Assembly: GCA_021767705.1 (NCBI GenBank)
Contig: JAASSU010000002.1
Coordinates: 1 to 63,107, forward strand
Origin: Bacteroidota bacterium
GTDB lineage: Bacteria; Bacteroidota; Bacteroidia; Bacteroidales; JAIPAH01
Reading direction: 5' to 3'
Length of the DNA stretch: 63,107 nucleotides
Shown here: piece after piece, positions 22,733-47,769 of the stretch
How the letters are laid out: every line of letters starts with the position of its first letter
How positions within the stretch are numbered: the stretch's first letter is position 1
Position numbers and translations under genes: made by a program
The notes under the pieces: model-generated
The model's database searches: none
Seen by the model: only the letters and a program-made list of their open reading frames with translations
What the model was told of the DNA's origin: nothing

Positions 22733-22755
22733 ATTACAAATATTTTGAAAATTAA

Positions 22756-23616: not shown

Positions 23617-23619
23617 AAC

Positions 23620-24426
23620 CTATAATTTTTGATGTAGATATCCGTTAGCGGCTTCCTGGATAAAACTTTGAATCATTTGATTGTCAGTTTTCAGATTTTG
23701 CCCAGTGAGGCGGTTGAGGGTTAAAACAGATCCTTTCCATGCCCCGTTGGTTATCCACTGTCCATCAGAAAGCCCTGCTAATTTTTTATAGTCTATCTCT
23801 GTTCCGGAAGCATATCCGGCAAGGTAGAAATAGGATTGTCCAGCCATGCTGTCTTCCATAGCCAGGCCAAAACCAATACCGAAGCCAGGGCTTACCTGCG
23901 CATACACTCCCGTGTCGAAGTGGTGGGGCCAGATACGTATCTCACTTTCAGCCTGTAAAAACCCCAGGAAATGGAGGCAGGCTTCATTGGCAAGCTGACG
24001 GAAATAGCTCCATTTTTGGATACCACTCTCATTGATGTCGTTTGAAGCTATGCGCCCTATTTTGTAATCGGGGATTTCAAAATGCAGTTCCCGGAATATT
24101 TTTTCCGCCGGAAGCCCTACCGACTGTGGATAAACTGAAACGTCCTGTTCGATTTCCTGCATGGTTTTGTTGAAAACCGAAATAGTGTCCTTTATGCCGA
24201 GATGCTGATCCATCCATTCAAAATGCATGGCTCTGACATTCAACGCAAGAAAGATTTTTTGCTGCTTGTGTTCCACCCAGCGGCCCGTAAGTTTGCCCGA
24301 TACCGGATCGAAATAAAGATTGGTGTGGCTGTCGTCTTCTTTTTCGGGCAGAAAAGCCCTGTTGGTCTTGGCAAGCACCTGGCTGAGCCAGTGTACCTGC
24401 CGGTCTGTCTTATTGTATTCCTGCAT
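23620..24426 (-). CDS. Hypothetical protein (no family recognised), embedded in the operon
   Basis: 268-aa ORF, soluble-looking. Its start overlaps the upstream gene's 3' end by 17 nt, and its stop lies 3 nt before the tauE-like start. Confidence 0.65.
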   Translation of the reverse strand: MQEYNKTDRQVHWLSQVLAKTNRAFLPEKEDDSHTNLYFDPVSGKLTGRWVEHKQQKIFLALNVRAMHFEWMDQHLGIKDTISVFNKTMQEIEQDVSVYPQSVGLPAEKIFRELHFEIPDYKIGRIASNDINESGIQKWSYFRQLANEACLHFLGFLQAESEIRIWPHHFDTGVYAQVSPGFGIGFGLAMEDSMAGQSYFYLAGYASGTEIDYKKLAGLSDGQWITNGAWKGSVLTLNRLTGQNLKTDNQMIQSFIQEAANGYLHQKL

Positions 24427-27237: not shown

Positions 27238-27291
27238 TGGGTTCTTATTTTTGATAATTCCACATCGTGTTAAACTTATTTTCAGCACATT

Positions 27292-28653: not shown

Positions 28654-29606
28654 AAGCCCCAGAGTGAATTAACAAACCATTTACGGTGGTCGTAATAATT
28701 TTTGATTATCCTGAAACCTGCTTCAGTTGCATGTTCCGATATCATCTGTTCATCATATTTCTGTGAAATTTCCACGAAAATGGTTTCATTTTCGGCAAAC
28801 GAAATAGACATATCGAGTTTTTCTAAACGAACAGCCTGTTCTTTTTTACTTACTAAAAAACTTTTTGCGGCCCCGCTGTTTTGGTCATATTTTTCTTTGT
28901 GAACGAAATTGGCAGTGTTAAAATCAGCCTCCAATTCTTCATTGATGCGTGTAAGCAGGTTGAGGTTAAAGGCTGCAGTAAGGCCCTGAGGGTCGTTGTA
29001 GGCTTTTAGTATTATTTCCGGATCTTTTTTTAAATCAAAGCCAATGAGTAGTTTATCCCCTTCATTTAATACTTTACGCACTTGTTGTAAAAAGTTTACG
29101 GACTGCCCATAAGTAAAATTCCCAATGTTTGATCCGAGGAAAAGGGCAATCTTAGGTTTTGATCCGTTTAACCCTGATATTAAGTGAAAATAATCGCCCG
29201 TAAGCCCCTCAATCTTTAATTGTGGCAACTCCGATGCCAGTTGCTGTTGAAGTTGCATAATTGCCTGATGCGAAATATCAATGGGGATGTACCTGAAATC
29301 CATTCCCTGGTGAAGCAATGCTTTTAATAGTATTTTTGTTTTCAAACCATCACCGGCCCCCAGTTCAATGATTTCAAATTCACCGGCATCCGAAATGAAA
29401 TCCCGGCAGATAGTATTTTTTTGTTCAGAAAATATTTCAAGCTCACAGTCGGTGAGGTAATATTCATCCATTCGCATGATCGCCTCAAAAATTTCGCTGC
29501 CTTTTTGATCATACAGGTACTTTGACTGAAGATATTTTGGGGAAGACGAAAGCCCCCTCCGGACCTCTTCAGCAAATTCTGTTGTGGTTAATGTAGCATT
29601 TTCCAT
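28650..29606 (-). CDS. EgtD-like SAM-dependent amino-acid N(alpha)-methyltransferase (Methyltransf_33 family)
   Basis: 318 aa. Motifs PKYLQSKYLYDQKGSEIFEAI...EYYLTDCELEI and ELGAGDGLKT...YIPIDIS are collinear with histidine N-alpha-methyltransferase EgtD. The substrate is not inferable. Confidence 0.82.
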   Translation of the reverse strand: MENATLTTTEFAEEVRRGLSSSPKYLQSKYLYDQKGSEIFEAIMRMDEYYLTDCELEIFSEQKNTICRDFISDAGEFEIIELGAGDGLKTKILLKALLHQGMDFRYIPIDISHQAIMQLQQQLASELPQLKIEGLTGDYFHLISGLNGSKPKIALFLGSNIGNFTYGQSVNFLQQVRKVLNEGDKLLIGFDLKKDPEIILKAYNDPQGLTAAFNLNLLTRINEELEADFNTANFVHKEKYDQNSGAAKSFLVSKKEQAVRLEKLDMSISFAENETIFVEISQKYDEQMISEHATEAGFRIIKNYYDHRKWFVNSLWGL

Positions 29607-32089: not shown

Positions 32090-33256
32090 ATGATTACAAG
32101 AAAAGCATCAGCATTACTTAAACAACTGGCAGGCTATTTCAAAGTTGTGGCCGTTATAGGGCCCCGTCAATCCGGGAAAACAACGTTGGTAAAGGCAGTC
32201 TTTGGTGATAAAGCTTATGTTAACCTGGAGACAGCCACCAATCTCAGTTTTGCATTTGATGATCCGATAGGGTTTCTGGAGCAATATCCGTCAGGGGCGG
32301 TAATTGATGAAGCACAAAAAGCACCTCATTTGTTTTCATATTTACAGGAAATTGTTGATCGGCCAGTAAAACCAGGCATGTTCATACTCACGGGATCGAA
32401 TAATTTCCCGCTCAACAAGAACATATCACAATCCTTGGCCGGACGGGTAGGCTATCTGAATTTATTGCCATTCAGTTACAACGAAATTGAAATACACCAC
32501 AAAGATTTTGACGAAACTGATTTTATGGTGAATGGGTTTTATCCGCCTATTTACGACCAAAAAATCCCTTTTCATTTGTGGTACCCAAATTATATCAAAA
32601 GTTATATTGAACGGGATGTCAGGCAGATTAAAAACATCAGCAACCTCATTTTTTTTGAAAAATTTATGCAATTGCTGGCCGGACGGACAGCACAGGAAGT
32701 CAATTACAACTCCCTTTCTGTTGAACTCGGAGTGGATGTGAAAACAGTCCAATCCTGGGTAGCCGTGCTGGAGCAGAGTTTTGTTGTTTTCTTGTTAAAG
32801 CCTTACCACAAAAATTTTAAGAAAACAATAGTAAAACGGCCTAAACTGTATTTCTATGATCCCGGAGTGGTATGCTCCTTACTTGGAATCACTTCAAAGG
32901 AAACCCTGAACATGCACCCCCTTAAAGGTGCCGTTTTTGAAACGATGGTAGTTTCGGAGTTTATTAAATTACAGCAACAAAAAATCAGTTCCCCTAAATT
33001 CTATTTTTGGCGTGATAAAACCGGAAGGGAGATTGATTTAATCATAGAAAAACAGCGATCTACATACCCCTGTGAAATAAAATCCGGTAAAACAATCCAA
33101 AAAGATTTTTTCAAGAACCTACAGTATTGGAATAAGTTAAGCGGTTCGGAAAAAGCTGTGATTATTTATCCGGGTGCCCAGGAGCAAAAAAGGAGCAACG
33201 GTATCGAAATTCTCAACTGGCAGCATATTGACAGGCTGTTTGCTGATGTGGATTAA
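32090..33256 (+). CDS. AAA-family ATPase with a DUF4143 C-terminal domain
   Basis: Walker A GPRQSGKTT, Walker B-like AVIDEAQK, and the DUF4143-type C-terminal half. It is the only plus-strand gene within a 25-kb minus-strand block and is visibly AT-rich. Confidence 0.82.
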   Translation: MITRKASALLKQLAGYFKVVAVIGPRQSGKTTLVKAVFGDKAYVNLETATNLSFAFDDPIGFLEQYPSGAVIDEAQKAPHLFSYLQEIVDRPVKPGMFILTGSNNFPLNKNISQSLAGRVGYLNLLPFSYNEIEIHHKDFDETDFMVNGFYPPIYDQKIPFHLWYPNYIKSYIERDVRQIKNISNLIFFEKFMQLLAGRTAQEVNYNSLSVELGVDVKTVQSWVAVLEQSFVVFLLKPYHKNFKKTIVKRPKLYFYDPGVVCSLLGITSKETLNMHPLKGAVFETMVVSEFIKLQQQKISSPKFYFWRDKTGREIDLIIEKQRSTYPCEIKSGKTIQKDFFKNLQYWNKLSGSEKAVIIYPGAQEQKRSNGIEILNWQHIDRLFADVD

Positions 33257-35930: not shown

Positions 35931-35977
35931 ATAAAAATACAAAAACCACGAAAAGGCACTTCAACCCTTTCGTGGTT
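35931..35977 (-). terminator. Rho-independent terminator after porV
   Basis: AACCACGAAA (35944-35953) pairs with TTTCGTGGTT (35968-35977), a 10-bp stem. On the minus strand it is followed by TTTGTATTTTTAT. Confidence 0.65.
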
Positions 35978-36002
35978 CATAAAATTTTAGAGAATATCGT
36001 TC

Positions 36003-37172
36003 CTACATTCCTGTAAAAGCATCAAAATCGAAATACAGGCTAAACCTCAAAGTGTTGTCTAACGGGCTCTGAACTCCTGTTGGGATAAGATAGGAGAAAT
36101 CAAGGGCAAAAACATTGTACTTCAGCCCGGCACCCATGGTTACGTAGTTTCTGTTTCCTTTGGTTTCATCTTCATAGAAATATCCGGCGCGCAGCGCAAA
36201 GGTTTCATCATACCAGTATTCCGTACCGAAAGCAAAGTTAATCTCCCTGAGCTCCTCGTTAAATCCACCCGGAGCGTCGTAAAACGACTGGAAAATCCCA
36301 GTGATAACAGAAACATCGTTGTCCATACCACTTTGTATTTCGCCCGGGTTATCCGGGTCCATGATTGGTGGTGTTGGTACCAGCAGCTTGTTCACATCGA
36401 GTGCAAAGGTAATTTCGTTATAGCCGTCCAGTTCCATTTTCAAAGCCGGGCCCAAACGAAGGTTGGTTGGTATAAAATCCTGCTGCACATCGGTGGTATA
36501 AGATATTTTAGCACCGATATTTGAAATATTTGCTCCGAAAGAGAAAACACCATCGGTAGACCCTAAATCAACTTCATTCTGGTAATACATTCCGATATCG
36601 GCGGCGATCGATGTTCCCGCACGAGTTTCCGCACCACCAGCGTTTTGCCCCAGTGTAAGGTTAGAGTAGATAAACCTTCCGGCTACAGCCAAAGAAAGAT
36701 TGTCAGAAAGTTTTCTGGAATAGGTCGCATCCAAAGCAAACTCATTAGGCTGATATTCTCCAAGAGAGTTTCCGCTTTGGTCGGTAAATTCTATATTACC
36801 CAGCGAGAAATATCTTAAAGAAGCTGCGATGGTTTGGATATCATCCAGTTTCCTGTAAAACACAGCGTTTGAAAGTCCGATGTCGTCGACCAGCTCACGC
36901 AGCCATGGACTATAACCGATAGATACACCCATCTCATCATCAATAAAAGCGTACTTTGCAGGATTCCAGAACATAGAGTTCGCATCAGGAGATGTGGCCA
37001 CGCCAACGTCGCCCATCGCCCCTCCCCTGGCATCAGGAGAAATCATAAGAAACGGCACTCCGGTTGTAATGGTATTGATATCATTGTTGTTGTCTTGTGC
37101 AAAACCCTGCATTGCACCTAAGGATAAGATGCTCAGAAATAAAGCTTTTACGACTTCTTTTGTCTTCCTCAT
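36003..37172 (-). CDS. porV: T9SS outer-membrane channel/shuttle protein PorV (LptO)
   Basis: Signal peptide, then TGVPFLMISPDARGGAMGDVGVATSPDANSMFWNPAK, a beta-barrel pattern, and a position next to porU. Confidence 0.9.
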   Translation of the reverse strand: MRKTKEVVKALFLSILSLGAMQGFAQDNNNDINTITTGVPFLMISPDARGGAMGDVGVATSPDANSMFWNPAKYAFIDDEMGVSIGYSPWLRELVDDIGLSNAVFYRKLDDIQTIAASLRYFSLGNIEFTDQSGNSLGEYQPNEFALDATYSRKLSDNLSLAVAGRFIYSNLTLGQNAGGAETRAGTSIAADIGMYYQNEVDLGSTDGVFSFGANISNIGAKISYTTDVQQDFIPTNLRLGPALKMELDGYNEITFALDVNKLLVPTPPIMDPDNPGEIQSGMDNDVSVITGIFQSFYDAPGGFNEELREINFAFGTEYWYDETFALRAGYFYEDETKGNRNYVTMGAGLKYNVFALDFSYLIPTGVQSPLDNTLRFSLYFDFDAFTGM

Positions 37173-37305: not shown

Positions 37306-40300
37306 CTAATCGAGCTTAATCAACTTGCCTCCGGTGCGGTTAACCAGGTCGTTTTTCCCTATTATCAGGATGTTGTAGATGTACACTCCTTTATCTGCCC
37401 GGTTTCCTGAATTGTCATTTCCATCCCAGTAAATGGGTGGCAGCAGGTACCCATCCGACTGTAAGTCGAAAGGCCCTAAGCGCCGGATAAGCCTTCCACT
37501 GATATCATGAATCTGGATACTGACCGTCACCCGTTCATTAAACAGGTTGTGCTCCAGATAAATCTCTGTGGATTCGGAAAACGGATTAGGCACACCTCTC
37601 ATGCTTGTAATTGCAGGCGTGATATCATCCGACACATAGAATTCGATGGATTTCTGAGAGCTGTTGTTGTGCACATCCCAGGCTGTGACCGTGAGCTTGT
37701 GTAAACCGACTTCCAGGTTATTGAACGGGTAGTTGACCGTACCGCTCTTGTAACTGTCGAGGCCGGCAGAATAAAAATCGTTCAGCACAAAAAGCTTGTT
37801 GATGTCATCGTCGATCATCGCCAGCAAGTCGTGGCCAATCCCGTTTCCAACGGTATTTAATCCGCTTTCATCATATAAATCGGCGATCAGCATCGGCGAT
37901 TGGTTAACCACATCCCCGTTCTCAAACTCCCTATCGTTCATAAACAAGGTGATTTCCGGCCCCGCCTCATCATTACCTGTGCTTTCAGAAGTTCCGCCAA
38001 CAATTACTTCATTGTAGTAGCCAGTAGCATCTGTCGATTCTGAAGCGGCATAATAAGAAAGCTTTCCGTTCGCATAATCATAATCGATATCCTTCGGGAC
38101 AACGAAGGTAAAACTGAATTCCCCATTAGAGACGGTAGCCTTCCCTTTGTACAGAATATTGTTTTGGAGTTCGAAGGAGGTCTCATACGAGCCCGGATCA
38201 TTACCAAGGGTTTGGGCAGTGTATTCCTTATCGTAAACCACCGGGAAAATTTCTCCGTTAAACTGACTCAGCTTCGCTCCGCTGGTGCTTTGAATCTGCC
38301 CCTCGATAGTAACTTGCTTCAGTGCTTTTAAAGTATCGACGTTACTACTATTGATATCTACCCCATTAATCGTATTGGTCACCACCTTGTTTCCAGGATA
38401 AGCCAGCTTGAGGGCCGGGTCGCCAAGGAGGACGAACTGATATAGTTTCCCGTTGTTAGGCGTTTTGGAGGCAATCACTAAATCGCCAAGTCGCGGATAA
38501 TCTCCGTTTTCATCCCTTTCGAAAGCCTTTTTAAAAACCCTGACATTCAGAATGCTGTTGGTATGCGAAAATGCCAGTCTTGTAGTGGTAAGCATCGCGA
38601 TGCTGCCCCCACCGGGGTTTCGTAGCACTTTCTCTCCGGCTGAAACGATATGCGGATTATCGAAACGGCTAAACTCACAGGTGGCTGTAATAAACAAAGG
38701 CAAGGCATCGTAATTCGACCATCCCTCAATATCGGAGACACCAATAATCCGTTCATGAGCCAGCGACACCTCCCCGCCATGACCAGTGTAATTCATGATG
38801 AAAACCCCATTTTCCATCCGTGCCTTTATCGCATCGTTAACCGCCGGGTAGCGTTGCCCGCCGGGAGTGGACTCCTGGCGGTAGGCATCCAGAAAAATCT
38901 TATGAAGATTGTACTGATGATATCCGGTATCGACGATAGCGGCCAGCCGCTCAGCCTGCTGGAGATGCACGTTGTTGTCTTCATCATCAGCAATAATACA
39001 TATTTCGTTACGCCATGAGCCAAACGACTCGGGGTTGGAAGCGTAGTGAATAATTTTGTCTACGAGGTTTTCAGCCTGCTGAAGGTTCTCAACAGGGAAG
39101 CGCCCCACACCGATATCGAGAAACCCGATAAGGTTATCCCCTTCAGGCGACTGGAGCCCTTCAGCCTCATCCATTAAAGCAAAATAATCGTCGGTAACAT
39201 ACGTATTGGAGATATTCAATGACTCGTAAGATGGGAATGAGGGCACAAAGTTGGTGTTATTCTCCACCCGGTCGTGAAAATCATAGGAGCTGTTCCCGAA
39301 CATCAACAGGTATTTCGGACGCTTCCCCTCATCGGAAGTGTGATATACATTTCGCACAAAGTCACGTATCCCTGTGATATCCTGACCTCCTGAAGAAAAT
39401 TCATTGTAGATAAGCTCCGGATAAGCGATATAATATGACATGTTATCCTGTTGCTGGTGAAACTCAGCAATCCGTTGTGCCTGCTCAGTAAAATCAGGAT
39501 GGGCAATAATCAGGTAATCAACATTCTTCACGGCGTGCAGGTTCTGGTTTTCAACCTTTGAAACAAATTCAGGCTGCTTCAGGTCGCTGCGATCAAAAGC
39601 GATATACTGATAAATCTGATCGGCCGGTCTCACAAATTCAGCGGCACTGCCCTGAACGGAATAATCCACCACTGCCGGAGCTATCGGATTGCTCACATCC
39701 CAAATCTGCATATCCTGGTTATGACCCTCAATACGATACTTTACGATTTTATCTGCTCCCCTGGATTCAGCATCGCGAAAAGCCAATTGATTTCCGTTGA
39801 AAACAAGGTTGCACCTGGCCGATAACTCCACGTAGTTTAACCAGGCAAGTGAAGAACTGGAGGGAACATCATATTCCAACCTGATTTCGTAATCGTTGCC
39901 CTGTTCATCAAACTTATCGCGATGGTTATTTTGAAAAGCATACTGGTAATCTTCAGGATCCAGCCCAAGCACCCGGTGGTGATAGACTTTCTCACCATTG
40001 ACATAAACATTAACATCAGAGGTGATGGTGGATTTTAAGGCAATGTCTGTTTGCAGATATAGCCTGGAGCCTTCAACAATACTCTCGAAGGTAAATTCCG
40101 GAACAGTAAACGAAGGCCGACCCAAATCGAGCCGCTCGCCAAACCATTCGCGTCCCGACTCTATGAGGCTGTGTTTGTTATTTTCGTAGAGCTGGTAGTT
40201 ATCATAAGTGGTTACTACCTCATCTGGCTGCTGCGATGACTGCTGCAAGGTACCGGGCTCCAGTGCTGTCCCCTGGTCGGGAGTAAAGAAATAGTAAGAG

Positions 40301-41121
40301 TAATCGGAAAAATAATTGTATTTGTGATTAAACTTAAACTGCAAAGAGCTATACTCCCACTCCACTGTTCCTTTTCCGTAAAACAGAATGTAATCGCCGT
40401 TATCGAAACTGCCATCGTCGTTATCGTAAATAATAACCGGGTTTTCGGTCAGATCGCGCGGCCTTTCAGTGCTGTTCATCTCAGGAAGGAGAAGCCCGGT
40501 ATTTCCAAAAACACCCACTTTGTTTAAATCAAGGTTATCGACATCCACACCCCAGTTTTTGAGCCTGGAGTAGGTGAGTTTATACATCCCATCCTCATTG
40601 AGTTTGAATTTATACCAATTGCCCTGGCGCAAAACGCTGTTTTCCTTAAAGGGAGCCTCTTCTGCACTCTTCCCGGAAACAGCATACTCAAAATTGAGGC
40701 TAAAAGAGGTAAGCTTTTGCAGGCCGGATGCTGATTTCTGCAAAGGCTTGAAGCGCAAAACCAATTTTTTGTTTCCGCGCTGTGTAACATGATGATAAGA
40801 AAAATCCACCTTGGCGGGAATGTCGAGCGGATCGAGTAAGGTTTTAGCCTCAGTTTCCAGTGGTTTGAAAGTTTGATTCTCAAGGATGACCTGGCTGACC
40901 TCAAGGTTATCAGGAATATCAATCACCTTCTCATAGTAAGGAACAACTGCAAAGGCTTCATGATAAACGGCATCATCAAAACTCAGCCTTTCGAAACTGA
41001 CGGAATCTCCGATATTGACTGTTTCAACAGGATTCCATTGTATTTCGTGATGAACCTGTTGGGCTTTTACCGCAGAAAATATCCAAACTAAAGCTATTAC
41101 TAATCCTAATCTTTTTATCAT
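37306..41121 (-). CDS. porU: T9SS C-terminal signal peptidase/sortase PorU (peptidase C25 family)
   Basis: 1271 aa with a signal peptide. C25 catalytic motifs NYTGHGGE (His) and ITATCEFSRFD (Cys). C-terminal beta-sandwich tail. Confidence 0.9.
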   Translation of the reverse strand: MIKRLGLVIALVWIFSAVKAQQVHHEIQWNPVETVNIGDSVSFERLSFDDAVYHEAFAVVPYYEKVIDIPDNLEVSQVILENQTFKPLETEAKTLLDPLDIPAKVDFSYHHVTQRGNKKLVLRFKPLQKSASGLQKLTSFSLNFEYAVSGKSAEEAPFKENSVLRQGNWYKFKLNEDGMYKLTYSRLKNWGVDVDNLDLNKVGVFGNTGLLLPEMNSTERPRDLTENPVIIYDNDDGSFDNGDYILFYGKGTVEWEYSSLQFKFNHKYNYFSDYSYYFFTPDQGTALEPGTLQQSSQQPDEVVTTYDNYQLYENNKHSLIESGREWFGERLDLGRPSFTVPEFTFESIVEGSRLYLQTDIALKSTITSDVNVYVNGEKVYHHRVLGLDPEDYQYAFQNNHRDKFDEQGNDYEIRLEYDVPSSSSLAWLNYVELSARCNLVFNGNQLAFRDAESRGADKIVKYRIEGHNQDMQIWDVSNPIAPAVVDYSVQGSAAEFVRPADQIYQYIAFDRSDLKQPEFVSKVENQNLHAVKNVDYLIIAHPDFTEQAQRIAEFHQQQDNMSYYIAYPELIYNEFSSGGQDITGIRDFVRNVYHTSDEGKRPKYLLMFGNSSYDFHDRVENNTNFVPSFPSYESLNISNTYVTDDYFALMDEAEGLQSPEGDNLIGFLDIGVGRFPVENLQQAENLVDKIIHYASNPESFGSWRNEICIIADDEDNNVHLQQAERLAAIVDTGYHQYNLHKIFLDAYRQESTPGGQRYPAVNDAIKARMENGVFIMNYTGHGGEVSLAHERIIGVSDIEGWSNYDALPLFITATCEFSRFDNPHIVSAGEKVLRNPGGGSIAMLTTTRLAFSHTNSILNVRVFKKAFERDENGDYPRLGDLVIASKTPNNGKLYQFVLLGDPALKLAYPGNKVVTNTINGVDINSSNVDTLKALKQVTIEGQIQSTSGAKLSQFNGEIFPVVYDKEYTAQTLGNDPGSYETSFELQNNILYKGKATVSNGEFSFTFVVPKDIDYDYANGKLSYYAASESTDATGYYNEVIVGGTSESTGNDEAGPEITLFMNDREFENGDVVNQSPMLIADLYDESGLNTVGNGIGHDLLAMIDDDINKLFVLNDFYSAGLDSYKSGTVNYPFNNLEVGLHKLTVTAWDVHNNSSQKSIEFYVSDDITPAITSMRGVPNPFSESTEIYLEHNLFNERVTVSIQIHDISGRLIRRLGPFDLQSDGYLLPPIYWDGNDNSGNRADKGVYIYNILIIGKNDLVNRTGGKLIKLD

Positions 41122-41173
41122 CTCAATTCTCTTCCCTGTGTTAATACTTCTCTAAGCAATCATCTGTTTTTTA

Positions 41174-44100
41174 CTAACGAATCAGAAGCAGTTTCCGTGT
41201 ATCTTCAGCAACTAAACCTTCGGGAGTGCTCACTTTAATGGTATAAATGTAAACACCCTTTTTCAGGAAGGTTCCTGTTGAAGTGCTGCCATCCCAGTAA
41301 ATGGGGTCGATCTTATTGGCATTTCCCGAATACTGCTGATGTGCTTCATAGTGCACCCGCTGTCCGTAAACATCAAACAACTCGAGCTCGACGGTGAGAT
41401 CGGTGTTTTTCTGATTGTGCTCAAATGTAAAATAAGTCCCTTCCACCACCGGATTTGGATGGTTGCCGGCTCGTTGAATTTCAAGTTTATCTTTGGAAAC
41501 CACCTTGAAATCAAGCTCTGCTGTGGCACTGTTGTTGTATACGTCCCACGCCTTGATGTAAAGGGTATGGTCACCCTCTTCCACATTAAAAAAAGGAAAC
41601 TGCACGGTTCCGCTTTTATAGGTGTTCAGATCTGCCTCATAATAATCGTTCAGTACTTTTACGTCCTCGGTATTATCGATATAAGCTACCAGGTCGTGCC
41701 CGATTCCATTTCCAACGGTGTTCACTCCGCTCTCATCGGTTATCCTGGCAAAGAGCACCGGGTTAGGGCCCGTCAGGCCTCCTTCCCTGAAATCAGGGGC
41801 ATTGATAAAAAGTTCGATCTCCGGACCATTATCATCTGAGGCTACCGCCTCATCAAAGCCCCCCACCATCACCTGGTTGTTGAGTCCGTGGGCATCGGTG
41901 CCGTCACCGGCAGCATAAAGCGACACTTTTCCGCGGCCAAAATGGTAATCAATATCTTTGGGCACCACAAAACTGAACTCAAAGGCACCGTTTATCACAT
42001 CAGCTTTCCCTTTGTATAAAATACTGTTGAGCACCTCAAAGTCGGTTGGGTATGACGACGGATCGTTTCCGAGGGTCGTCACCACTTCCTTTTTATCGTA
42101 AATAGTAGGATATACAATTCCGTTAAAATCGGGGAGGATATTTCCTGCTGCGTCGCTAACTACTCCCTTCATGGTCACTTCCGAGAGTGCCTTCAGCGTA
42201 TCGGAATGGTCAGCAACCAGCTCCCCGTTAATGTGCGTGATGCTTGCATTTTTCTCGGGGTAAGCCATCTGCAGGGCCGGGTCGCCGAGCAGAATAAATT
42301 TTCTTCCGTTGTCTCCTCCGCCGTTGTCTCTCTTTGCCAGGCGAATCAAGTCGCCCATTCTTGGTGTTTTACCGTCTACCTGACGTAGCGCATAGTTGTA
42401 AAAGCTCCTGTTCAGGTTATAATTTGGGTTTCCGTAGGTTGCCCTGGTTGTTGTAAACAGTGCAATACCACCACCGTTCGGGTGAGTAAATACCCGCTCG
42501 CCTGCCGACACACGCTCAGGATCGTCGAAGCGCGAAAACTCGCAGGTGGCCGTAACAAATACCGGCAGCCGGTCGTAGTTCGACCAGTTTTCGATGTCTG
42601 CAATGCCCAGCACGCGTTCAAGCGCCCAGCCCACCTCGCCACCGTGACCCGTGTAGTTCACAATCAACGCTCCTTCCTGAACCCGGGTGTTGATGCTTTC
42701 GTTGACTGACGGATATCGTTGACCTCCCGGGGTACTTTCCTGCTGATAGGCATCAAACATGATTTTCACGAGGTTGTATTCCGGGTGATTCCTGTTGACG
42801 TATTCCGACAGGTTCAGCGCATCATTCAGGTGAGCATTCCCGTCTTCATCATCACCAATAAAAGTGATAATATTCCTCCAGGGGCCAAGAACGACATCGG
42901 AATTGCTTCCGTAATGGATTATTTTTTCCACAGCATTTGTAGCTTGTTCAGGAGTAGATACCGGCAAACGGCCCAGACCAATATCGACCATATCGTTCAC
43001 AAAATTACCTTCACCATCATCGAGGTAACCAAAAAAATCATCAGTAGCATAAGACGTTACAGGATGGAGGGAGTTGGGCGTTTCATAGGTCGGGATAATA
43101 TTTGAATTTTTATTGATGATATCCTTGTAATCAAAAGAACCATCACCAAAAAACAGCGCATACTGAAGTCCGTTTTCGGGCTCCGAGCGGTCGTAAAGCA
43201 TTTTCAGAAAATCCCTTATTGCTGATATGTCCTGCATTCCGGATGAAAACTCGTTATATATTTCTTGCTGATTAACCACCTTCACTTTCAAGCTGCTGTT
43301 TTCGCGGTGGAAGTCTGCCAACCTGTGCGCCTGTTCAAGAAACATTTCTGGTGTAATAATCACATAATTGATATCGCTGTCAAGCCCGTGCAAATCCTGA
43401 TTGTTTACTCTGCCAACAGGAATGGGTTCTAAAAACGATGATCCATCGAAGGCTGCAAATGTCTTAAGCTCTTGCCCTTCGGCTTTGAAAGCTTTGTATC
43501 CATTATCCGTGGTGACGGGGTACTGCCGGATATTGAAAATATCGCTCACATCCCATACCGTAAGGTTTCCCTGATGTTGCACCCTGTATTCCACAATATT
43601 ATCGTCCAGTGATTGCTTACTCCTGAAAATCGCCTGTCCGTTCAGCAGTTTCAGCCGTCGTTTAAGATTGAGCGTAAAATAATCGAGCCACCCAATGGAT
43701 GAGGAATTCACCTGGTTGTAGGCAAAATTCACAGAAAAAGAAGATCCATTAAGCCCGAATGTAAAATCTTTATACTGTTCTTGTGCGTACTTGCTGTTGG
43801 TAGAGGTACTTATGCTTGGAACAGTTACGGTTTCAAAATGCGAACCGATGTTGACCGAAAATGTAGAGGTCTGCGTAGATCGCGCCACCACGCGACTATA
43901 CATAAACCCCTCACTACCGGCAATCAAATCCGGAATATCATATTCAAATGAATGCTCTGCTTCTAAATCGAACTTCTCTCCCACGAACCTTCTTCCTGAG
44001 TTGATAATGCTGTGCAAATCATTTTCATGATGTATCAGATAGTCGTAACTTTCGATTACCTGTGTGGCATTCCCGGCTGGCGGCTGTAATGTTTCAATCC

Positions 44101-44950
44101 GTTTTCCTGCCTGGCTGCCTGTGGTGATAAAGTAGTAATTGGTGTCGGCATAGGTGTGCACTGTGTGGTAATATTGTCCCGTACCATCTTCATAGTGCCA
44201 TTCATCAGGTGATTCAGCATAAAAAAGAATGTAATCATCATTATTTATTGTTCCATCGCCACTATCAAAAACTTTAACAGGAATTTCAGGAAGATCACCG
44301 GGGCGTGGGGTATCCACAGGCTCAGGCAGCATGCCGCTTCCATAGCCATGCACTCTTATTTTTTGTGCATCGATATTCCCGGTAAGGCCCAAATTACGCA
44401 AGTCGTTAAAAGTCATTATAAACACTCCTGTGGTGTCCACCCCAATTTTATACCAGGCTCCATTGGCAAGCTGTGAAGAACTTACGTAAGATTTTTTTGT
44501 GTGTCCCGATTCAAGGCCTTGTGCTTCCAGAACATTAACCCGGTAATCAGATAACCTGAAGAAAGCCTCACCGTCATCACTTTTTCTGAAAGGAAGGAAC
44601 GCGAAATACCCCACAGGCTTTTTGCGCTGAAACATCACGCCATAATCAAAATGGTATTTGTATTCAAGGTCGTACTTTCTGAGTTGTGCACTAACCTCTT
44701 CTGAGCATCTTTTTTCTTTAAGAACATCAAGAGTGGCAATCAGATCGGTATTACCAACCTGCATATCAAAATTTTGGCGGACTTCAGAGAGGCCCTGATA
44801 GTTGTCGGACGGAACTCCTTCCGCGAAAGCGGGTATTTCTTCATCCGAAAAGACCCAATCCACAGATCCTCTGTATTCCTTCTGGGCAAAAACAGAGGAC
44901 ACCACAAAGGCCAGGGAAATCACAATGAAAAGTAAATGACGTTTGATCAT
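41174..44950 (-). CDS. Second full-length PorU-like C25 peptidase (tandem paralog)
   Basis: Collinear with the adjacent PorU: NYTGHGGEVGWALER and VTATCEFSRFDDP, GDPALQMAYP versus GDPALKLAYP, NGIGHDLVAYID versus NGIGHDLLAMID. I chose the start at MIKRHLLF (44950), parallel to MIKRLGLV of PorU. The track ORF extends to 45013. Confidence 0.85.
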   Translation of the reverse strand: MIKRHLLFIVISLAFVVSSVFAQKEYRGSVDWVFSDEEIPAFAEGVPSDNYQGLSEVRQNFDMQVGNTDLIATLDVLKEKRCSEEVSAQLRKYDLEYKYHFDYGVMFQRKKPVGYFAFLPFRKSDDGEAFFRLSDYRVNVLEAQGLESGHTKKSYVSSSQLANGAWYKIGVDTTGVFIMTFNDLRNLGLTGNIDAQKIRVHGYGSGMLPEPVDTPRPGDLPEIPVKVFDSGDGTINNDDYILFYAESPDEWHYEDGTGQYYHTVHTYADTNYYFITTGSQAGKRIETLQPPAGNATQVIESYDYLIHHENDLHSIINSGRRFVGEKFDLEAEHSFEYDIPDLIAGSEGFMYSRVVARSTQTSTFSVNIGSHFETVTVPSISTSTNSKYAQEQYKDFTFGLNGSSFSVNFAYNQVNSSSIGWLDYFTLNLKRRLKLLNGQAIFRSKQSLDDNIVEYRVQHQGNLTVWDVSDIFNIRQYPVTTDNGYKAFKAEGQELKTFAAFDGSSFLEPIPVGRVNNQDLHGLDSDINYVIITPEMFLEQAHRLADFHRENSSLKVKVVNQQEIYNEFSSGMQDISAIRDFLKMLYDRSEPENGLQYALFFGDGSFDYKDIINKNSNIIPTYETPNSLHPVTSYATDDFFGYLDDGEGNFVNDMVDIGLGRLPVSTPEQATNAVEKIIHYGSNSDVVLGPWRNIITFIGDDEDGNAHLNDALNLSEYVNRNHPEYNLVKIMFDAYQQESTPGGQRYPSVNESINTRVQEGALIVNYTGHGGEVGWALERVLGIADIENWSNYDRLPVFVTATCEFSRFDDPERVSAGERVFTHPNGGGIALFTTTRATYGNPNYNLNRSFYNYALRQVDGKTPRMGDLIRLAKRDNGGGDNGRKFILLGDPALQMAYPEKNASITHINGELVADHSDTLKALSEVTMKGVVSDAAGNILPDFNGIVYPTIYDKKEVVTTLGNDPSSYPTDFEVLNSILYKGKADVINGAFEFSFVVPKDIDYHFGRGKVSLYAAGDGTDAHGLNNQVMVGGFDEAVASDDNGPEIELFINAPDFREGGLTGPNPVLFARITDESGVNTVGNGIGHDLVAYIDNTEDVKVLNDYYEADLNTYKSGTVQFPFFNVEEGDHTLYIKAWDVYNNSATAELDFKVVSKDKLEIQRAGNHPNPVVEGTYFTFEHNQKNTDLTVELELFDVYGQRVHYEAHQQYSGNANKIDPIYWDGSTSTGTFLKKGVYIYTIKVSTPEGLVAEDTRKLLLIR

Positions 44951-45244
44951 AACAAGAAACCTTTGTTTCATAACAAACCGCAGCAAAAAACGTTTGTGAT
45001 ATAAACACAGCACGTTAGCTGACGATGAGAAAATAACGCAAATCCTCGGCTCTTATTGTTGAAACCAACCTGAGGCCGGACATAATAATTTGTTAATTTG
45101 CGCGTATTACACCCGGGAAACAAATGTAGTGAATCATCCAAGGGGAAGCATCCGTCAGTGTAAAAATATGTAATAAGCTTGACGGCTTCTGGTTTACTAA
45201 GAAGTGTTTTTATTGAAGGAGGACATTGTATAAATTAGTTATCA

Positions 45245-46231
45245 ATGAAAAATTTTAAACCAGGGATTTTTATTCTGAGTATCATTATGCCCTTCTTGTC
45301 AGTCGGACAAGATCATACTTTCTCTCAGTTTTACTCGAGCCCAATGTTTTTAAACCCTTCCCTTGCCGGTAATACTGAATGCGCGCGCCTTTCGCTGAAC
45401 TACAGGAACGAATGGCCATCTATTCCTGCGGCCTTTAACACTTACCAGGTTGTTTATGACCAGTCGTTACCCTCGATATCAAGCGGCTATGGAGTGATGG
45501 TCTTTAGGGACGCGCAGTCTGACAATGCTTTTAACCGCACGCATGTGGCAGCAGCATACTCTTATCAGGTCAAAGTATCCGAAAACTTTATTATGAATTG
45601 GGGATTGCAAGCCTCCTATATCGAAAACAGTATTAAGTGGAACCGTTTGATATTTCCTGATCAAATCAATACCGACGGAAGTATCAGCCCTACCACCAAC
45701 GAAATACCTCCCGAAAATAACCAGGTGCGTATGGCTGATTTCAGCTATGGCTTTTCGTTCGACTGGAAACAAAAGTATTATGGCGGCATGGCTGTTCACC
45801 ACATGAACGAACCCATGAATTCTTTTTACGAAAATGAGCTCAGTTTACTCAAAAGGAAATATACGTTTCATGCCGGGGCTGTTTTTCAAAACGACCCTGC
45901 GATATATGCGAAAAAATCGATTTTCATTTCGCCCAATTTAATGTATCAGCAGCAAGGAAACTTCAGGCAATTAAATGCCGGTGTGTACGTTACTTTGAAA
46001 CCCATTGTAGCCGGGGCATGGTTCAGGCACAATTTTGATAATCCGGATGCTGCGATAATTTTATTAGGTTTGCAGCACGAGAATTTTAAGGTAGGATACA
46101 GCTATGATTATTCACTGTCGGGGCTTGCCGGAACACTTGGCGCAGCACACGAGGTGACTTTATCCTACAATTTTTGTATTTATGTAGAAAAAAGAAGGAA
46201 AGTTCGTGCAATAAAATGCCCGGAGTTTTAG
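45245..46231 (+). CDS. PorP/SprF-family T9SS membrane protein
   Basis: Signal peptide, then QDHTFSQFYSSPMFLNPSLAGN, typical of PorP/SprF, and a beta-barrel-like remainder. It lies upstream of gldJ. Confidence 0.85.
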   Translation: MKNFKPGIFILSIIMPFLSVGQDHTFSQFYSSPMFLNPSLAGNTECARLSLNYRNEWPSIPAAFNTYQVVYDQSLPSISSGYGVMVFRDAQSDNAFNRTHVAAAYSYQVKVSENFIMNWGLQASYIENSIKWNRLIFPDQINTDGSISPTTNEIPPENNQVRMADFSYGFSFDWKQKYYGGMAVHHMNEPMNSFYENELSLLKRKYTFHAGAVFQNDPAIYAKKSIFISPNLMYQQQGNFRQLNAGVYVTLKPIVAGAWFRHNFDNPDAAIILLGLQHENFKVGYSYDYSLSGLAGTLGAAHEVTLSYNFCIYVEKRRKVRAIKCPEF

Positions 46232-46266
46232 TTATTAGTTAAATTTGAAAAAAAATTTGGAACCAG

Positions 46267-47769
46267 ATGCGAGCATATAGAAGTTTATTTTTGATTGCTG
46301 TACTTGCACTCCTTTTCGCTTCATGTAACAACAAAGACGTTTCCCGCACCACAGGGTGGGAATACAACAGTGCCGAAAACGGAGGATTTACTAAAGTTGA
46401 TTACAAGGAGCAGACCACAGGGCCCGGCCTTGTGCTGATTCAGGGAGGTACTTTTGTTATGGGTGCCACCTTGCCCGACCCCCTCAGGAGTTATGACAAC
46501 GAGCCAAGAAGGGTGACCGTACAGACTTTCTACATGGACCAGACCGAGGTTAGAAACATCGATTACGTGGAATACCTTTACTGGTTAAGCCGTGTGTTTG
46601 GCACCGATGATCCTCTTTATCAAGAAGCTCTCCCAGACACCATGGTTTGGCGCGACCGCCTTGCATATAACGAGCCGCTCTCTGACCTTTATCTTCGCCA
46701 CCCTGCATTCCAAAACTATCCTGTTGTGGGGGTTTCTTGGGTTCAGGCCAACGACTACTGCGTGTGGAGAAGCGACCGCGTAAATGAAGGGATATTGGTG
46801 GAAAAGGGATTACTGGAATGGAACCTTGAAGAGGCCGCTCCCGACCAGGGCAAGTATCCTTTCTCAACAGAAGCATATCTTTCAGGAGCATACAAAGACA
46901 TGGTAAACTCAGGCTTGCCTAACCTTAATCCGAATGCCGGTGAAGGGGAGCAAACAAGAAATGTAAGGATGGAAGACGGTATTCTTCTTCCTAACTACCG
47001 CCTGCCCACCGAAGCCGAATGGGAATACGCCGCGTTAGCTCAAATCGGAAATACGGTTGAGGAGCGCGTTTATCAACGGAAGTTTTATCCATGGAATGGA
47101 AATTTTGTAAGAAACGATGACAAAAGATATTATGGTGCGATGATGGCAAACTTCAAGCGTTCAAGAGGTGACTACGCCGGTGTGGCTAACAACCTTAACG
47201 ATGGTGCCGTCATCACTGAAGAAGTTGGATCGTACTGGCCAAATGACTTCGGATTGTACAACATGGCAGGAAACGTAGCCGAGTGGGTGCGCGATGTTTA
47301 TCGCCCGCTTTCCCACCAGGACGTGTCAGACCTGCAGCCTTTCAGGGGTAATGTATTCACTGAAACAGTCATTGATCCAAACACTAACAAGCCTGAGCTC
47401 GACAGAATGGGGCACTACAAAGAAGAGCCCATCGAGAACGTTCAGCGCAGCAATTATCAGCAAGCTGACAACATCAACTACAAAGATGGTGATGCAGGCT
47501 CGCTGAGCAGTTTCTCTTTTATCGACGAACAAGGACAACCTCAAAATGGTAAAGGTCAAGGGAACACATCTTCAACTGAGGTAATGTATAAGGATAACCG
47601 TTCGCTGATTTCTGATAAAACCAGGGTTTATAAGGGTGGATCATGGAAAGACCCCGCTTTCTACCTGAACCCCAGCGTCAGAAGATACCACAAGGAATCA
47701 ATGGCAACCGACTACATTGGTTTCCGCTGCGCTATGACGCGCGTTGGCGGTGCCGTTCCGCGTAAATAA
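46267..47769 (+). CDS. gldJ: Gliding motility lipoprotein GldJ (FGE-sulfatase/SUMF1 fold)
   Basis: Lipobox LLFASC. TGWEYNSAENGGF...GPGLVLIQGGTFVMG...ALPDTMVWRDRLAYNEP...YLRHPAFQNYPVVGVSW is collinear with F. johnsoniae GldJ. Confidence 0.9.
   Translation: MRAYRSLFLIAVLALLFASCNNKDVSRTTGWEYNSAENGGFTKVDYKEQTTGPGLVLIQGGTFVMGATLPDPLRSYDNEPRRVTVQTFYMDQTEVRNIDYVEYLYWLSRVFGTDDPLYQEALPDTMVWRDRLAYNEPLSDLYLRHPAFQNYPVVGVSWVQANDYCVWRSDRVNEGILVEKGLLEWNLEEAAPDQGKYPFSTEAYLSGAYKDMVNSGLPNLNPNAGEGEQTRNVRMEDGILLPNYRLPTEAEWEYAALAQIGNTVEERVYQRKFYPWNGNFVRNDDKRYYGAMMANFKRSRGDYAGVANNLNDGAVITEEVGSYWPNDFGLYNMAGNVAEWVRDVYRPLSHQDVSDLQPFRGNVFTETVIDPNTNKPELDRMGHYKEEPIENVQRSNYQQADNINYKDGDAGSLSSFSFIDEQGQPQNGKGQGNTSSTEVMYKDNRSLISDKTRVYKGGSWKDPAFYLNPSVRRYHKESMATDYIGFRCAMTRVGGAVPRK

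What the first reader, a model, noticed from the sequence alone, without database searches (positions are those of the whole stretch)
37306..44950. Two tandem, full-length, apparently catalytically competent PorU sortase paralogs upstream of porV
The models I know (P. gingivalis, F. johnsoniae) have a single porU next to porV. Here two ORFs of 1271 aa and about 1258 aa sit head-to-tail, 52 nt apart. Both have signal peptides. Both retain the C25 His and Cys motifs (NYTGHGGE; TATCEFSRFD). They share long collinear blocks in the core but have clearly diverged N-terminal regions, for example SVLRQGNWYKFKLNEDGMYKLTY versus SQLANGAWYKIGVDTTGVFIMTF. This points to an old duplication maintained by selection. 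One possibility is two sortases specialised for different cargo classes (type A versus type B C-terminal domains) or different attachment chemistries.
Basis: partly seen in the sequence, partly recalled or inferred. Interest (0 to 1): 0.7.

Follow-up and report, generated by a model that had tools for sequence, protein, structure and literature searches.

The report
Conserved tandem pair of PorU sortases
This Bacteroidales genome carries two intact, anciently diverged copies of the type IX secretion sortase PorU in front of porV; the same ordered pair turns up in dozens of uncultured relatives and I found no paper describing it, so these bacteria probably process secreted proteins with two different sortases rather than one.

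Summary
On the minus strand, porU-A (41174-44950, 1258 aa), a 52-nt gap, porU-B (37306-41121, 1271 aa) and porV (36003-37172) form one apparent operon that ends in a strong hairpin. Both proteins score three times the NCBIfam PorU cutoff, align end to end with P. gingivalis PorU (PDB 6ZA2), and keep the His/Cys dyad, a signal peptide and a type-A-like CTD. They are 39% identical.

The pair is not peculiar to this genome. At least 58 of 80 sampled GTDB species representatives, all uncultured Bacteroidales-type MAGs, have two or three tandem porU genes. Upstream copies (T1) and downstream copies (T2) form separate groups with mirrored subtrees, diagnostic residues and a fixed order. This points to one ancient in-situ duplication, although NJ bootstrap support is only 30-45%.

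Both copies are under strong purifying selection (dN/dS 0.05-0.07), and all 144 sequences examined keep the catalytic dyad. T1 is the conservative copy. T2 evolves faster, varies at catalytic-domain sites that are invariant elsewhere, was lost in about three lineages and re-duplicated in two.

Best reading: a core sortase (T1) plus a specialised accessory sortase (T2). The specialisation is inferred, not shown. I found no literature on this. It is a new variant of a known system, of moderate interest.

The parts
41174..44950 (-). porU-A: the upstream PorU paralog, type 'T1' (1258 aa plus stop). A GTG-extended ORF reaches 45013; the ATG at 44950 matches the orthologs.
   Evidence: NF033707 scores 1319 bits against a cutoff of 420. 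Peptidase_C25 E=4e-109. PDB 6ZA2 PorU E=5e-149 over residues 158-1257. Scores higher with a T1 HMM built from other lineages, +100 bits.
37306..41121 (-). porU-B: the downstream PorU paralog, type 'T2' (1271 aa plus stop).
   Evidence: NF033707 scores 1272 bits. The N-terminal 'long form' domain NF052318 scores 66-72 bits against a cutoff of 40. C25 E=8e-103. 6ZA2 E=4e-128. Scores higher with the T2 HMM, by 33 bits.
36003..37172 (-). porV, the outer-membrane shuttle/anchor barrel and last gene of the unit.
   Evidence: NF033710 scores 530 bits against a cutoff of 250. Pfam PorV E=1e-76.
41122..41173 (-). The 52-nt spacer between porU-A and porU-B, with no terminator-like or promoter-box motif.
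   Evidence: Co-transcription is inferred.
35943..35978 (-). Intrinsic-terminator-like hairpin (15-bp stem followed by a T-run) 25 nt after the porV stop. Probable end of the porU-A/porU-B/porV transcript.
45014..45244 (.). Divergent intergenic region between porU-A and porP/sprF. It contains a Bacteroidetes-type TAnnTTTG box at 45128-45121 on the minus strand. A second box lies at 37215-37208, upstream of porV.
   Evidence: This is weak evidence: 7 such boxes occur on this strand in 9.4 kb.
42542..42646 (-). Catalytic dyad codons of porU-A: His769 (42644-42646) and Cys803 (42542-42544).
   Evidence: The His and Cys columns are invariant in 144 of 144 sequences.
38677..38781 (-). Catalytic dyad codons of porU-B: His781 (38779-38781) and Cys815 (38677-38679).
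42299..42439 (-). Paralog-diagnostic codons in porU-A: Thr838 (42437-42439) and Lys884 (42299-42301). This is the T1 signature.
   Evidence: The (T,K) pair is found in 57 of 61 upstream copies, 0 of 61 downstream copies, and 6 single-copy genes nested within T1.
38572..38658 (-). Derived catalytic-domain positions in porU-B. Asn822 (38656-38658) replaces an Asp that is invariant in T1 and in outgroup PorUs, 7 residues after the catalytic Cys. Ala850 (38572-38574) is the T2 signature.
41177..41485 (-). C-terminal T9SS sorting domain (CTD) of porU-A. It ends in ...KLLLIR.
   Evidence: TIGR04183 type A CTD scores 27.5 bits against a cutoff of 23. CHU_C is sub-threshold at 23.5 against 27.
37309..37617 (-). 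C-terminal T9SS sorting domain (CTD) of porU-B. It ends in ...KLIKLD.
   Evidence: TIGR04183 scores 20 bits, which is below the cutoff of 23. FlgD_ig scores 27.0, equal to the Pfam cutoff. The stretch lies within the NF033707 match.
45245..47769 (+). Conserved divergent neighbours: a porP/sprF-family gene (45245-46231) and gldJ (46267-47769), followed by murF and anmK.
   Evidence: TIGR03519 scores 218 bits. TIGR03524 GldJ scores 456.7 against a cutoff of 458.2. The same synteny is seen in two-copy relatives and single-copy relatives.

Best explanation
The locus encodes two genuine, active PorU-family C25 cysteine peptidases/transpeptidases (T9SS sortases). They arose from one ancient tandem duplication of porU inside the conserved gldJ | porU-porV-ispF locus. 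They are co-transcribed with a single porV.

Each protein is exported by Sec, using a signal peptide with Gln at +1. Each is then translocated by the T9SS through its own type-A-like CTD and, by analogy with P. gingivalis PorU, held at the surface on PorV. There it removes the CTDs of cargo.

The upstream copy (T1) keeps the ancestral, general sortase role. The downstream copy (T2) is a non-redundant accessory sortase. Its catalytic domain has changed at positions that are otherwise invariant, so it probably handles a different subset of cargo, a different cleavage site or a different acceptor nucleophile (surface attachment versus release).

Shown here: identity as PorU, intact dyads, antiquity of the pair, purifying selection, fixed gene order and asymmetric evolution. 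Inferred: co-transcription, docking on PorV, and the nature of the specialisation.
For: Family identity and integrity:
- NF033707 scores 1272 and 1319 bits against a cutoff of 420.
- Both match the C25 domain.
- Both align full-length to PorU 6ZA2.
- His and Cys are invariant in 144 of 144 PorU genes from 84 loci.

Antiquity and conservation:
- The two copies are 39% identical, with no nucleotide tracts indicating gene conversion.
- The same porU-porU-porV-ispF arrangement, with divergent porP-gldJ-murF, occurs in relatives down to 52% identity.
- At least 58 of 80 GTDB species-representative loci carry two or three tandem copies.

Single origin with fixed order:
- The NJ tree separates downstream copies from upstream and single-copy genes, with mirrored subtrees.
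- The (T838,K884) signature is in 57 of 61 upstream and 0 of 61 downstream copies. (A,N) is in 47 of 61 downstream copies. Outgroup singles carry (V,N).
- In a leave-lineage-out HMM test, 56 of 56 upstream copies prefer the T1 model and 54 of 56 downstream copies prefer the T2 model.
- Single-copy relatives keep identical flanks.

Selection:
- dN/dS is 0.068 and 0.053 (window versus L001), and 0.071 and 0.061 (L003 versus L006). porV gives 0.027 and 0.057.

Asymmetry between the copies:
- T1 orthologs are more conserved than T2 orthologs in 97% of 1431 genome pairs. Outgroup identity is 43.0% to T1 and 39.8% to T2.
- T1 has 243 columns conserved at 90% or more; T2 has 172.
- T2 varies at D810 and N881, which are invariant in T1 and the outgroup. 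D810 lies 7 residues after the catalytic Cys.
- T2 is absent from three lineages nested inside T1 (L028/L067, L055/L060, L074) and is re-duplicated in L017 and L033.

Operon structure: no terminator lies between the genes, and a strong hairpin follows porV.
Against: - No functional data exist. Cargo specificity, acceptor choice and PorV docking are all inferred by analogy with P. gingivalis (reviewed in PMC10202324).
- Bootstrap support for the exact T1/T2 bipartitions is only 30-45%.
- A distance quartet test favours position-orthology in 935 of 1540 genome pairs but 'independent' pairing in 583. The deepest history is therefore not cleanly resolved.
- Mean T2-T2 identity (40.6%) barely exceeds T1-T2 identity (40.0%).
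- Within the window's own clade, copy A evolves slightly faster than copy B, the reverse of the global trend.
- The survey is a biased sample: the top 80 by similarity to copy A, taken from the first 600 pattern matches.
- The 3D position of the diagnostic residues relative to the active-site cleft was not determined.
Confidence: 0.6

Rival explanations
1. Obligate heteromer. T1 and T2 work as one heterodimeric sortase or regulatory pair. For example, each could block or activate the other's active site, as P. gingivalis PorU homodimers do through an intermolecular beta-hairpin. On this view they do not act independently on different cargo.
For: - PorU dimerisation with intermolecular latency is reported for P. 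gingivalis (review PMC10202324, citing Mizgalska 2021).
- The two genes keep a strict adjacency, a fixed order and a short gap of 52 nt.
- Their divergences are correlated, r=0.89.
- Both serve a single porV.
Against: - T1 occurs alone in lineages nested inside the two-copy clade (L028/L067, L055/L060, L074), so it functions without T2.
- At least one T2-like gene (L082) stands alone before porV.
- Three-copy loci exist (L017, L033).
- The correlated divergence is expected from shared vertical descent alone.
Confidence: 0.2
2. Several independent origins. The downstream copies arose through a number of separate tandem duplications, or through horizontal transfer, in different lineages. In that case 'T2' is not one orthologous family.
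For: - NJ bootstrap support is low, 30-45%.
- 583 of 1540 quartets pair the two copies of one genome.
- T2-T2 identity is about equal to T1-T2 identity.
- L021 shows that re-duplication or gene conversion does happen: its two copies are 60% identical and are sisters in the tree.
- In the first tree, A and B each have different nearest non-clade neighbours.
Against: - The best tree recovers T1, T2 and the outgroup as separate clans under every distance correction tried.
- The derived (T,K) state is never found in a downstream copy.
- 54 of 56 downstream copies score higher with a T2 HMM built only from other lineages.
- The gene order is never swapped: only 22 of 1540 quartets support a swap.
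- Within-genome identity is uniformly 37-49%.
Confidence: 0.1
3. One copy is a non-catalytic scaffold or adaptor. It might, for example, take over the PorZ-like role of presenting the LPS acceptor. Alternatively, the pair is simply redundant gene dosage.
For: T2 is less constrained overall, with 172 highly conserved columns against 243 in T1. It also varies at the otherwise invariant D810 and N881.
Against: - The catalytic His and Cys are kept in all 61 downstream and all 61 upstream copies.
- dN/dS is 0.05-0.07 for both copies.
- Retention at roughly 40% identity across many species-level lineages is not what neutral redundancy predicts.
- Neither protein matches a PorZ model, and both exceed the PorU equivalog cutoff.
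Confidence: 0.07

Closest known systems
PorU of Porphyromonas gingivalis (PDB 6ZA2) and the single porU-porV operons of the model organisms. The F. johnsoniae gldJ-porU-porV neighbourhood is cited from my own knowledge.
   Same: - Both window proteins align over about 1100 residues with 6ZA2 (E=5e-149 and 4e-128).
- They share the C25 catalytic domain and His/Cys dyad, the retained C-terminal CTD and the linkage to porV.
- The flanking porP-gldJ-murF | porU-porV-ispF synteny is also found in single-copy relatives.
   Different: - There are two paralogs, 39% identical, in a fixed order and serving one porV.
- Both are 'long form', with an extra N-terminal domain of about 150 aa (NF052318: B scores 72 bits, A only 15 bits). 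That domain lies N-terminal to the region that aligns with 6ZA2.
- At the two paralog-diagnostic sites P. gingivalis has V and S. This is neither the T1 state (T,K) nor the T2 state (A,N).
NCBIfam 'putative T9SS sortase PorU2' (NF052324) with 'PorV2' (NF052325)
   Same: It is also a second PorU-like C25 protein family linked to a PorV-like barrel. Both window proteins show distant similarity to it, at 144-151 bits.
   Different: Both window proteins fall far below the PorU2 cutoff of 450 bits and far above the PorU cutoff. The window's porV is canonical PorV (530 bits), not PorV2 (32 bits). The T1/T2 split described here lies inside canonical PorU.
Paralog expansion of other T9SS outer-membrane components: PorV/PorQ/PorP-SprF shuttle and anchor barrels, GldJ/GldK, GldN/GldO
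   Same: Duplication followed by specialisation of T9SS surface components for different cargo classes is established for the barrel proteins in F. johnsoniae (PMC12618676 and PMC9143113, abstracts; review). In some single-porU genomes sampled here, porV rather than porU is multiplied in tandem (L046, L080).
   Different: Here the enzyme is duplicated, not the shuttle. I found no paper describing that.
Multiple class-specific sortases of Gram-positive bacteria (SrtA housekeeping plus SrtB/C/D accessory). This is a functional analogy from established knowledge.
   Same: It works like the proposed model. A conserved housekeeping transpeptidase is accompanied by accessory enzymes that are faster-evolving, dispensable and sometimes multiplied, each with its own substrate set.
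   Different: The fold is unrelated (sortase beta-barrel versus clan CD C25), as are the sorting signals and the acceptor (peptidoglycan versus LPS). There is no homology.

Membership tests
PorU (T9SS C-terminal signal peptidase/sortase; NCBIfam NF033707) | Full-length match to the curated PorU equivalog model above its cutoff | tested here: met
   A scores 1319 bits and B 1272 bits against a cutoff of 420, covering model positions 1-1095.
PorU | Gingipain-type C25 catalytic domain with the His/Cys dyad | tested here: met
   Pfam PF01364 gives E=4e-109 and 8e-103. The dyad is H769/C803 in A and H781/C815 in B, invariant in 144 of 144 homologs.
PorU | Homology over all domains to the solved PorU structure | tested here: met
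   6ZA2 matches A residues 158-1257 at E=5e-149 and B residues 160-1253 at E=4e-128. This is sequence-level evidence only; no fold comparison was run.
PorU | Sec signal peptide, and a C-terminal T9SS CTD that makes PorU itself a T9SS substrate | tested here: met
   The N-termini are MIKRHLLFIVISLAFVVSSVFA|Q and MIKRLGLVIALVWIFSAVKA|Q, judged by inspection without a predictor. For the CTD, TIGR04183 scores 27.5 bits for A (cutoff 23) and 20 bits for B (sub-threshold). B also scores 27.0 on FlgD_ig. Both end in a K-L-hydrophobic strand.
PorU | Genomic linkage to porV | tested here: met
   porV lies 133 nt downstream of B. The same order is seen in 42 of the 58 multi-copy loci; the other 16 show no porV, because it is elsewhere or the contig ends.
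PorU | CTD cleavage of cargo and transpeptidation to LPS (enzymatic activity) | not testable with these tools
   This needs biochemistry or genetics. It is inferred only from the conserved dyad and from purifying selection.
PorU2 (NF052324, putative second T9SS sortase) | Score above the curated cutoff of 450 bits | tested here: not met
   A scores 151 bits and B 144 bits.
PorZ or another non-sortase attachment-complex protein | Best match to a non-C25 PorZ-type model instead of PorU | tested here: not met
   At E<=0.001 the full-length proteins hit only PorU-family models plus, for A, the CTD model. The dyad is intact.
Secreted gingipain-type protease cargo (C25) | Closer to gingipains than to PorU, with a cleavable cargo-type architecture | tested here: not met
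   Gingipain R chains match only B residues 668-820, at E about 2e-4, against 4e-128 for PorU.

The most novel reading that the evidence does not exclude
A large radiation of uncultured Bacteroidales runs a two-sortase T9SS attachment module. T1 is the ancestral CTD peptidase/LPS-transpeptidase. T2 is a neofunctionalised enzyme with altered residues next to the catalytic Cys. T2 either decides a different fate for cargo (release versus covalent anchoring, or a different acceptor glycolipid) or recognises a distinct CTD or cleavage-site class. This would be a natural genetic separation of the 'attach or release' decision that is unresolved for single-PorU model organisms.
Probability: 0.35. Interest if true: 0.7.

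Novelty: new variant of a known kind. Interest (0 to 1): 0.5.

Why it matters
All mechanistic work on T9SS cargo processing rests on organisms with one PorU. A 2023 review states that how PorU chooses between releasing effectors and attaching them 'remains to be unravelled' (PMC10202324).

A conserved, ordered pair of active PorU paralogs, one conservative and one fast-evolving with changes near the catalytic Cys, implies that many environmental Bacteroidales divide this step between two enzymes. That offers two things:
- A comparative handle on PorU specificity determinants, namely T1-specific versus T2-specific residues.
- A warning for annotation pipelines, which currently give both genes the same name.

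The practical value is limited for now, because every carrier found here is an uncultured MAG.

Tried and rejected
- **PorZ or PorU2 identity for one copy.** Rejected by NCBIfam scores.
- **Pseudo-enzyme idea.** Rejected: the dyad is invariant in 144 of 144 sequences.
- **Recent duplication or gene conversion in the window.** Rejected: the best shared nucleotide tracts are 44-47 nt at 72-77% identity.
- **Type-B (CHU_C) CTD on copy A as a hint of type-B specialisation.** This gave only a sub-threshold hit (23.5 bits against GA 27), while the type-A model passes (27.5 against 23). Both CTDs are type-A-like, so the idea was dropped.
- **'Long form versus short form' as the difference between the copies.** Rejected. 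Copy A also matches the long-form N-terminal model weakly, at 15 bits over model positions 4-128. Both types are mostly about 1270 aa, although 14 T2 copies and 3 T1 copies are short.
- **Scanning the full T1 and T2 alignments against NCBIfam.** I used N-terminal and C-terminal pieces of the window proteins instead.
- **Reading the PorU structure paper (PMC8501833).** Not held, so the latency hairpin and the domain borders could not be mapped.
- **Literature searches for two, duplicated or paralogous porU.** Nothing relevant turned up.
- **A third protein search, with the T2 profile, to find a cultured carrier.** It returned only MAG names.
- **Large-contig hits P0132, P0114 and P0207.** All turned out to be single-copy loci.
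- **Structure prediction.** Not run. The tool returns no coordinates, so it could not place the diagnostic residues relative to the active site.


Full report
**1. The observation**

The minus strand carries three consecutive ORFs:
- 41174-45013. The ATG at 44950 gives 1258 aa; I call this gene porU-A.
- 37306-41121, 1271 aa; I call this gene porU-B.
- 36003-37172, 389 aa.

The gap between the two large genes is exactly 52 nt. BLASTP of the two copies gives 39% identity, collinear over the full length.

**2. What the proteins are**

- Both proteins match the NCBIfam PorU equivalog NF033707 end to end, at 1319 and 1272 bits against a cutoff of 420.
- The third protein is PorV (NF033710, 530 bits, cutoff 250).
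- The 'PorU2' model reaches only 144-151 bits against a cutoff of 450, so neither copy belongs to that separate family.
- Pfam finds Peptidase_C25 in both.
- The only strong hit among solved structures is P. gingivalis PorU, 6ZA2, with E=5e-149 for A and 4e-128 for B over about 1100 residues.
- Both start with a typical signal peptide followed by Gln (VFA|Q and VKA|Q, by inspection).
- Both end in an Ig-like T9SS CTD of type A character. TIGR04183 scores 27.5 bits for A and 20 bits for B against a cutoff of 23. A weak CHU_C resemblance in A is below threshold.
- Both are 'long-form' PorUs. The extra N-terminal domain NF052318 is clear in B (72 bits) and only faint in A (15 bits, E=0.02).
- By region, A-B identity is 21% (residues 1-157), 30% (158-528), 49% (C25 domain), 51% (896-1155) and 32% (CTD).

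**3. Locus structure**

- No terminator-like hairpin lies in either intergenic gap.
- A 15-bp-stem hairpin with a T-run follows porV at 35978-35943.
- A Bacteroidetes-type TAnnTTTG box lies upstream of A (45128-45121) and another upstream of porV (37215-37208). There is none in the A-B gap. This is weak evidence, because the motif is short.
- Divergently upstream lie a porP/sprF-family gene, gldJ, murF and anmK. Downstream lie ispF and an ECF sigma factor.
- I infer one porU-A/porU-B/porV transcript, with a possible extra promoter for porV.

**4. How widespread the pair is**

- Close homologs of A (91-48% identity) and of B (95-49%) form two discrete sets that sit on the same contigs.
- Three of these contigs show the identical arrangement porP-gldJ-murF | porU-porU-porV-ispF.
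- A scan of GTDB species-representative genomes with an A-clade profile returned the 80 best of at least 595 PorU loci.
- tblastn with A, B and PorV against those loci shows two head-to-tail porU genes in 56 loci and three in 2 (L017, L033). That is at least 58 of 80.
- Among loci whose context is complete, 36 are multi-copy and 13 are single-copy.
- All 80 are MAGs, labelled Bacteroidales, Lentimicrobiaceae/Lentimicrobium, Prolixibacteraceae or Marinilabiliales. The single-copy loci include those labelled Flavobacteriales, Chitinophagales and Cytophagaceae.
- Single-copy relatives keep the same flanking genes, so the duplication happened in place.
It therefore shows that the pair is common, not how common.

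**5. One duplication or many**

An NJ tree of 144 full-length PorUs puts the downstream copies (T2) apart from the upstream copies (T1) and the single-copy genes, and the two halves have mirrored subtrees.

Evidence that leaves the question open:
- Bootstrap support for the exact bipartitions is modest, 30-45%, in the full set and in a reduced 34-taxon set under four distance corrections. The best tree always recovers T1, T2 and the outgroup as separate clans.
- A distance quartet test is noisy at this depth: 935 position-orthologous, 583 within-genome and 22 swapped, out of 1540.

Two independent lines that are clearer:
- *Diagnostic residues.* The pair (Thr838, Lys884 in A numbering) occurs in 57 of 61 upstream copies, in 6 single-copy genes nested within T1, and in 0 of 61 downstream copies. 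(Ala, Asn) occurs in 47 of 61 downstream copies. The outgroup singles have (Val, Asn). P. gingivalis has Val/Ser at these sites (alignment).
- *Leave-lineage-out HMMs.* With models trained only on other deep lineages, 56 of 56 upstream copies score higher on the T1 model. More tellingly, 54 of 56 downstream copies score higher on the T2 model. The exceptions are L021 and L037.

Within-genome identity is uniformly 37-49%. The exception is L021 at 60%, which looks like a recent re-duplication or gene conversion. I conclude that one ancient duplication with a preserved gene order is the best explanation. I leave about 10% for multiple origins.

**6. Selection and asymmetry**

- Every one of the 144 sequences keeps the catalytic His and Cys.
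- dN/dS is 0.068 (A), 0.053 (B) and 0.027 (porV) for the window versus L001. It is 0.071, 0.061 and 0.057 for L003 versus L006.
- There is no sign of recent gene conversion in the window.
- T1 is the conservative copy. T1 orthologs are more similar than T2 orthologs in 97% of 1431 genome pairs (45.3% against 40.5%, r=0.89).
- The outgroup is closer to T1 (43.0%) than to T2 (39.8%).
- T1 has 243 columns conserved at 90% or more; T2 has 172.
- T2 varies at Asp810 and Asn881, which are invariant in T1 and the outgroup. In the window, A reads TATCEFSRFDD and B reads TATCEFSRFDN, a change 7 residues after the catalytic Cys.
- T2 has been lost in three lineages nested in T1 (L028/L067, L055/L060, L074).
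- T2 has been duplicated again in L017 and L033.
- T2 has lost the N-terminal domain more often than T1: about 14 short T2 copies against 3 short T1 copies.

**7. Mechanism**

What is known for PorU, from the review PMC10202324:
- It is a Cys/His peptidase that removes cargo CTDs.
- It transfers the new C-terminus either to A-LPS, which anchors the protein, or to small amines, which releases it.
- It keeps its own CTD and stays bound to PorV.
- It is inhibited in a dimer by a beta-hairpin from the partner molecule.
- How it chooses between release and attachment is unknown.

Applied to this locus: both paralogs should be exported, mounted on PorV and catalytically active. That follows from their family membership, intact dyads and CTDs, and the purifying selection on both.

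The pattern across genomes is a conservative T1 alongside a T2 that is faster-evolving, dispensable, sometimes multiplied and altered near the active site. That is the pattern of a housekeeping enzyme plus a specialised accessory one. I therefore favour non-redundant sortases with different cargo, cleavage-site or acceptor preferences (confidence about 0.6 for the whole statement, with the identity and evolutionary parts near 0.9).

The rivals are:
- An obligate T1-T2 heteromer (0.2). It is weakened by the existence of T1-only and three-copy genomes.
- Multiple independent origins (0.1).
- A scaffold role for one copy, or simple redundancy (0.07). This is contradicted by the invariant dyads and the low dN/dS.

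**8. Comparison with what is known, and novelty**

Each protein is an unambiguous PorU family member. What is new is the T1/T2 paralogy within canonical PorU, with a fixed gene order in front of one porV, across many uncultured Bacteroidales lineages.

Six full-text searches and several targeted reads found no description of duplicated porU. Source annotations call both genes 'type IX secretion system sortase PorU'. The library covers open-access papers only, so an earlier mention elsewhere cannot be excluded.

I rate this a new variant of a known kind, with interest 0.5. It is a solid, previously unremarked evolutionary pattern that bears on an open question in T9SS biology. It has no functional evidence yet and no cultured carrier has been identified.

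Noticed in passing
window 20792-29606 (- strand): This gene cluster has a higher GC content than the rest of the window (0.50-0.52 against about 0.45) and contains unusual fusions. It encodes a Rieske+TPP-enzyme fusion (646 aa), a TauE/SafE exporter, an unknown 268-aa protein, a Rieske+glutamate-synthase-like FMN domain fusion (535 aa), an alpha/beta-hydrolase+OsmC fusion, an aminotransferase and an EgtD-like histidine-specific methyltransferase (PF10017). It may be a pathway for a histidine-derived small molecule.
   Followed up: no
L017:9980-20739 (complete chromosome OY820914.1) and L033:2962-14633: Each locus has three tandem porU genes before porV: one T1 and two T2. The two T2 copies are sisters in the tree, so T2 was duplicated again.
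   Followed up: partly
L021:9986-17772: The two tandem copies are 60% identical and are sisters in the tree, unlike every other pair (37-49%). This looks like a recent re-duplication or gene conversion that replaced T2.
   Followed up: partly
L046:13736-16378 and L080:13711-17527: In these single-porU, Flavobacteriales-type loci, porU is followed by two or three porV-like genes in a row. Here the barrel rather than the sortase is multiplied.
   Followed up: no
L011, L012, L014, L015, L019, L022, L030, L037, L039, L081 (downstream of the second porU): These loci have two porU copies, but no porV was detected in the roughly 6 kb downstream. porV must lie elsewhere in those lineages.
   Followed up: no
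L082:8101-11958; also L058:9650-13531 and L078:3856-7731: L082 has a single porU before porV that groups with T2 and carries the (A,N) signature, which may mean T1 was lost. L058's upstream copy and L078 carry (A,N) but cluster with the outgroup-type singles. These exceptions to the T1/T2 scheme are unresolved.
   Followed up: no
window 32090-33256 (+): An AAA_14 + DUF4143 ATPase gene sits alone on the opposite strand, between housekeeping genes. Such genes are often found in mobile or defence contexts. Its significance here is unknown.
   Followed up: no
window 46267-47769 (+): The GldJ homolog scores 456.7 bits, just under the curated cutoff of 458.2, and at 500 aa is shorter than the 559-position model. 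It is preceded by a PorP/SprF-family gene. This gene pair is conserved next to porU in both one-copy and two-copy genomes.
   Followed up: partly
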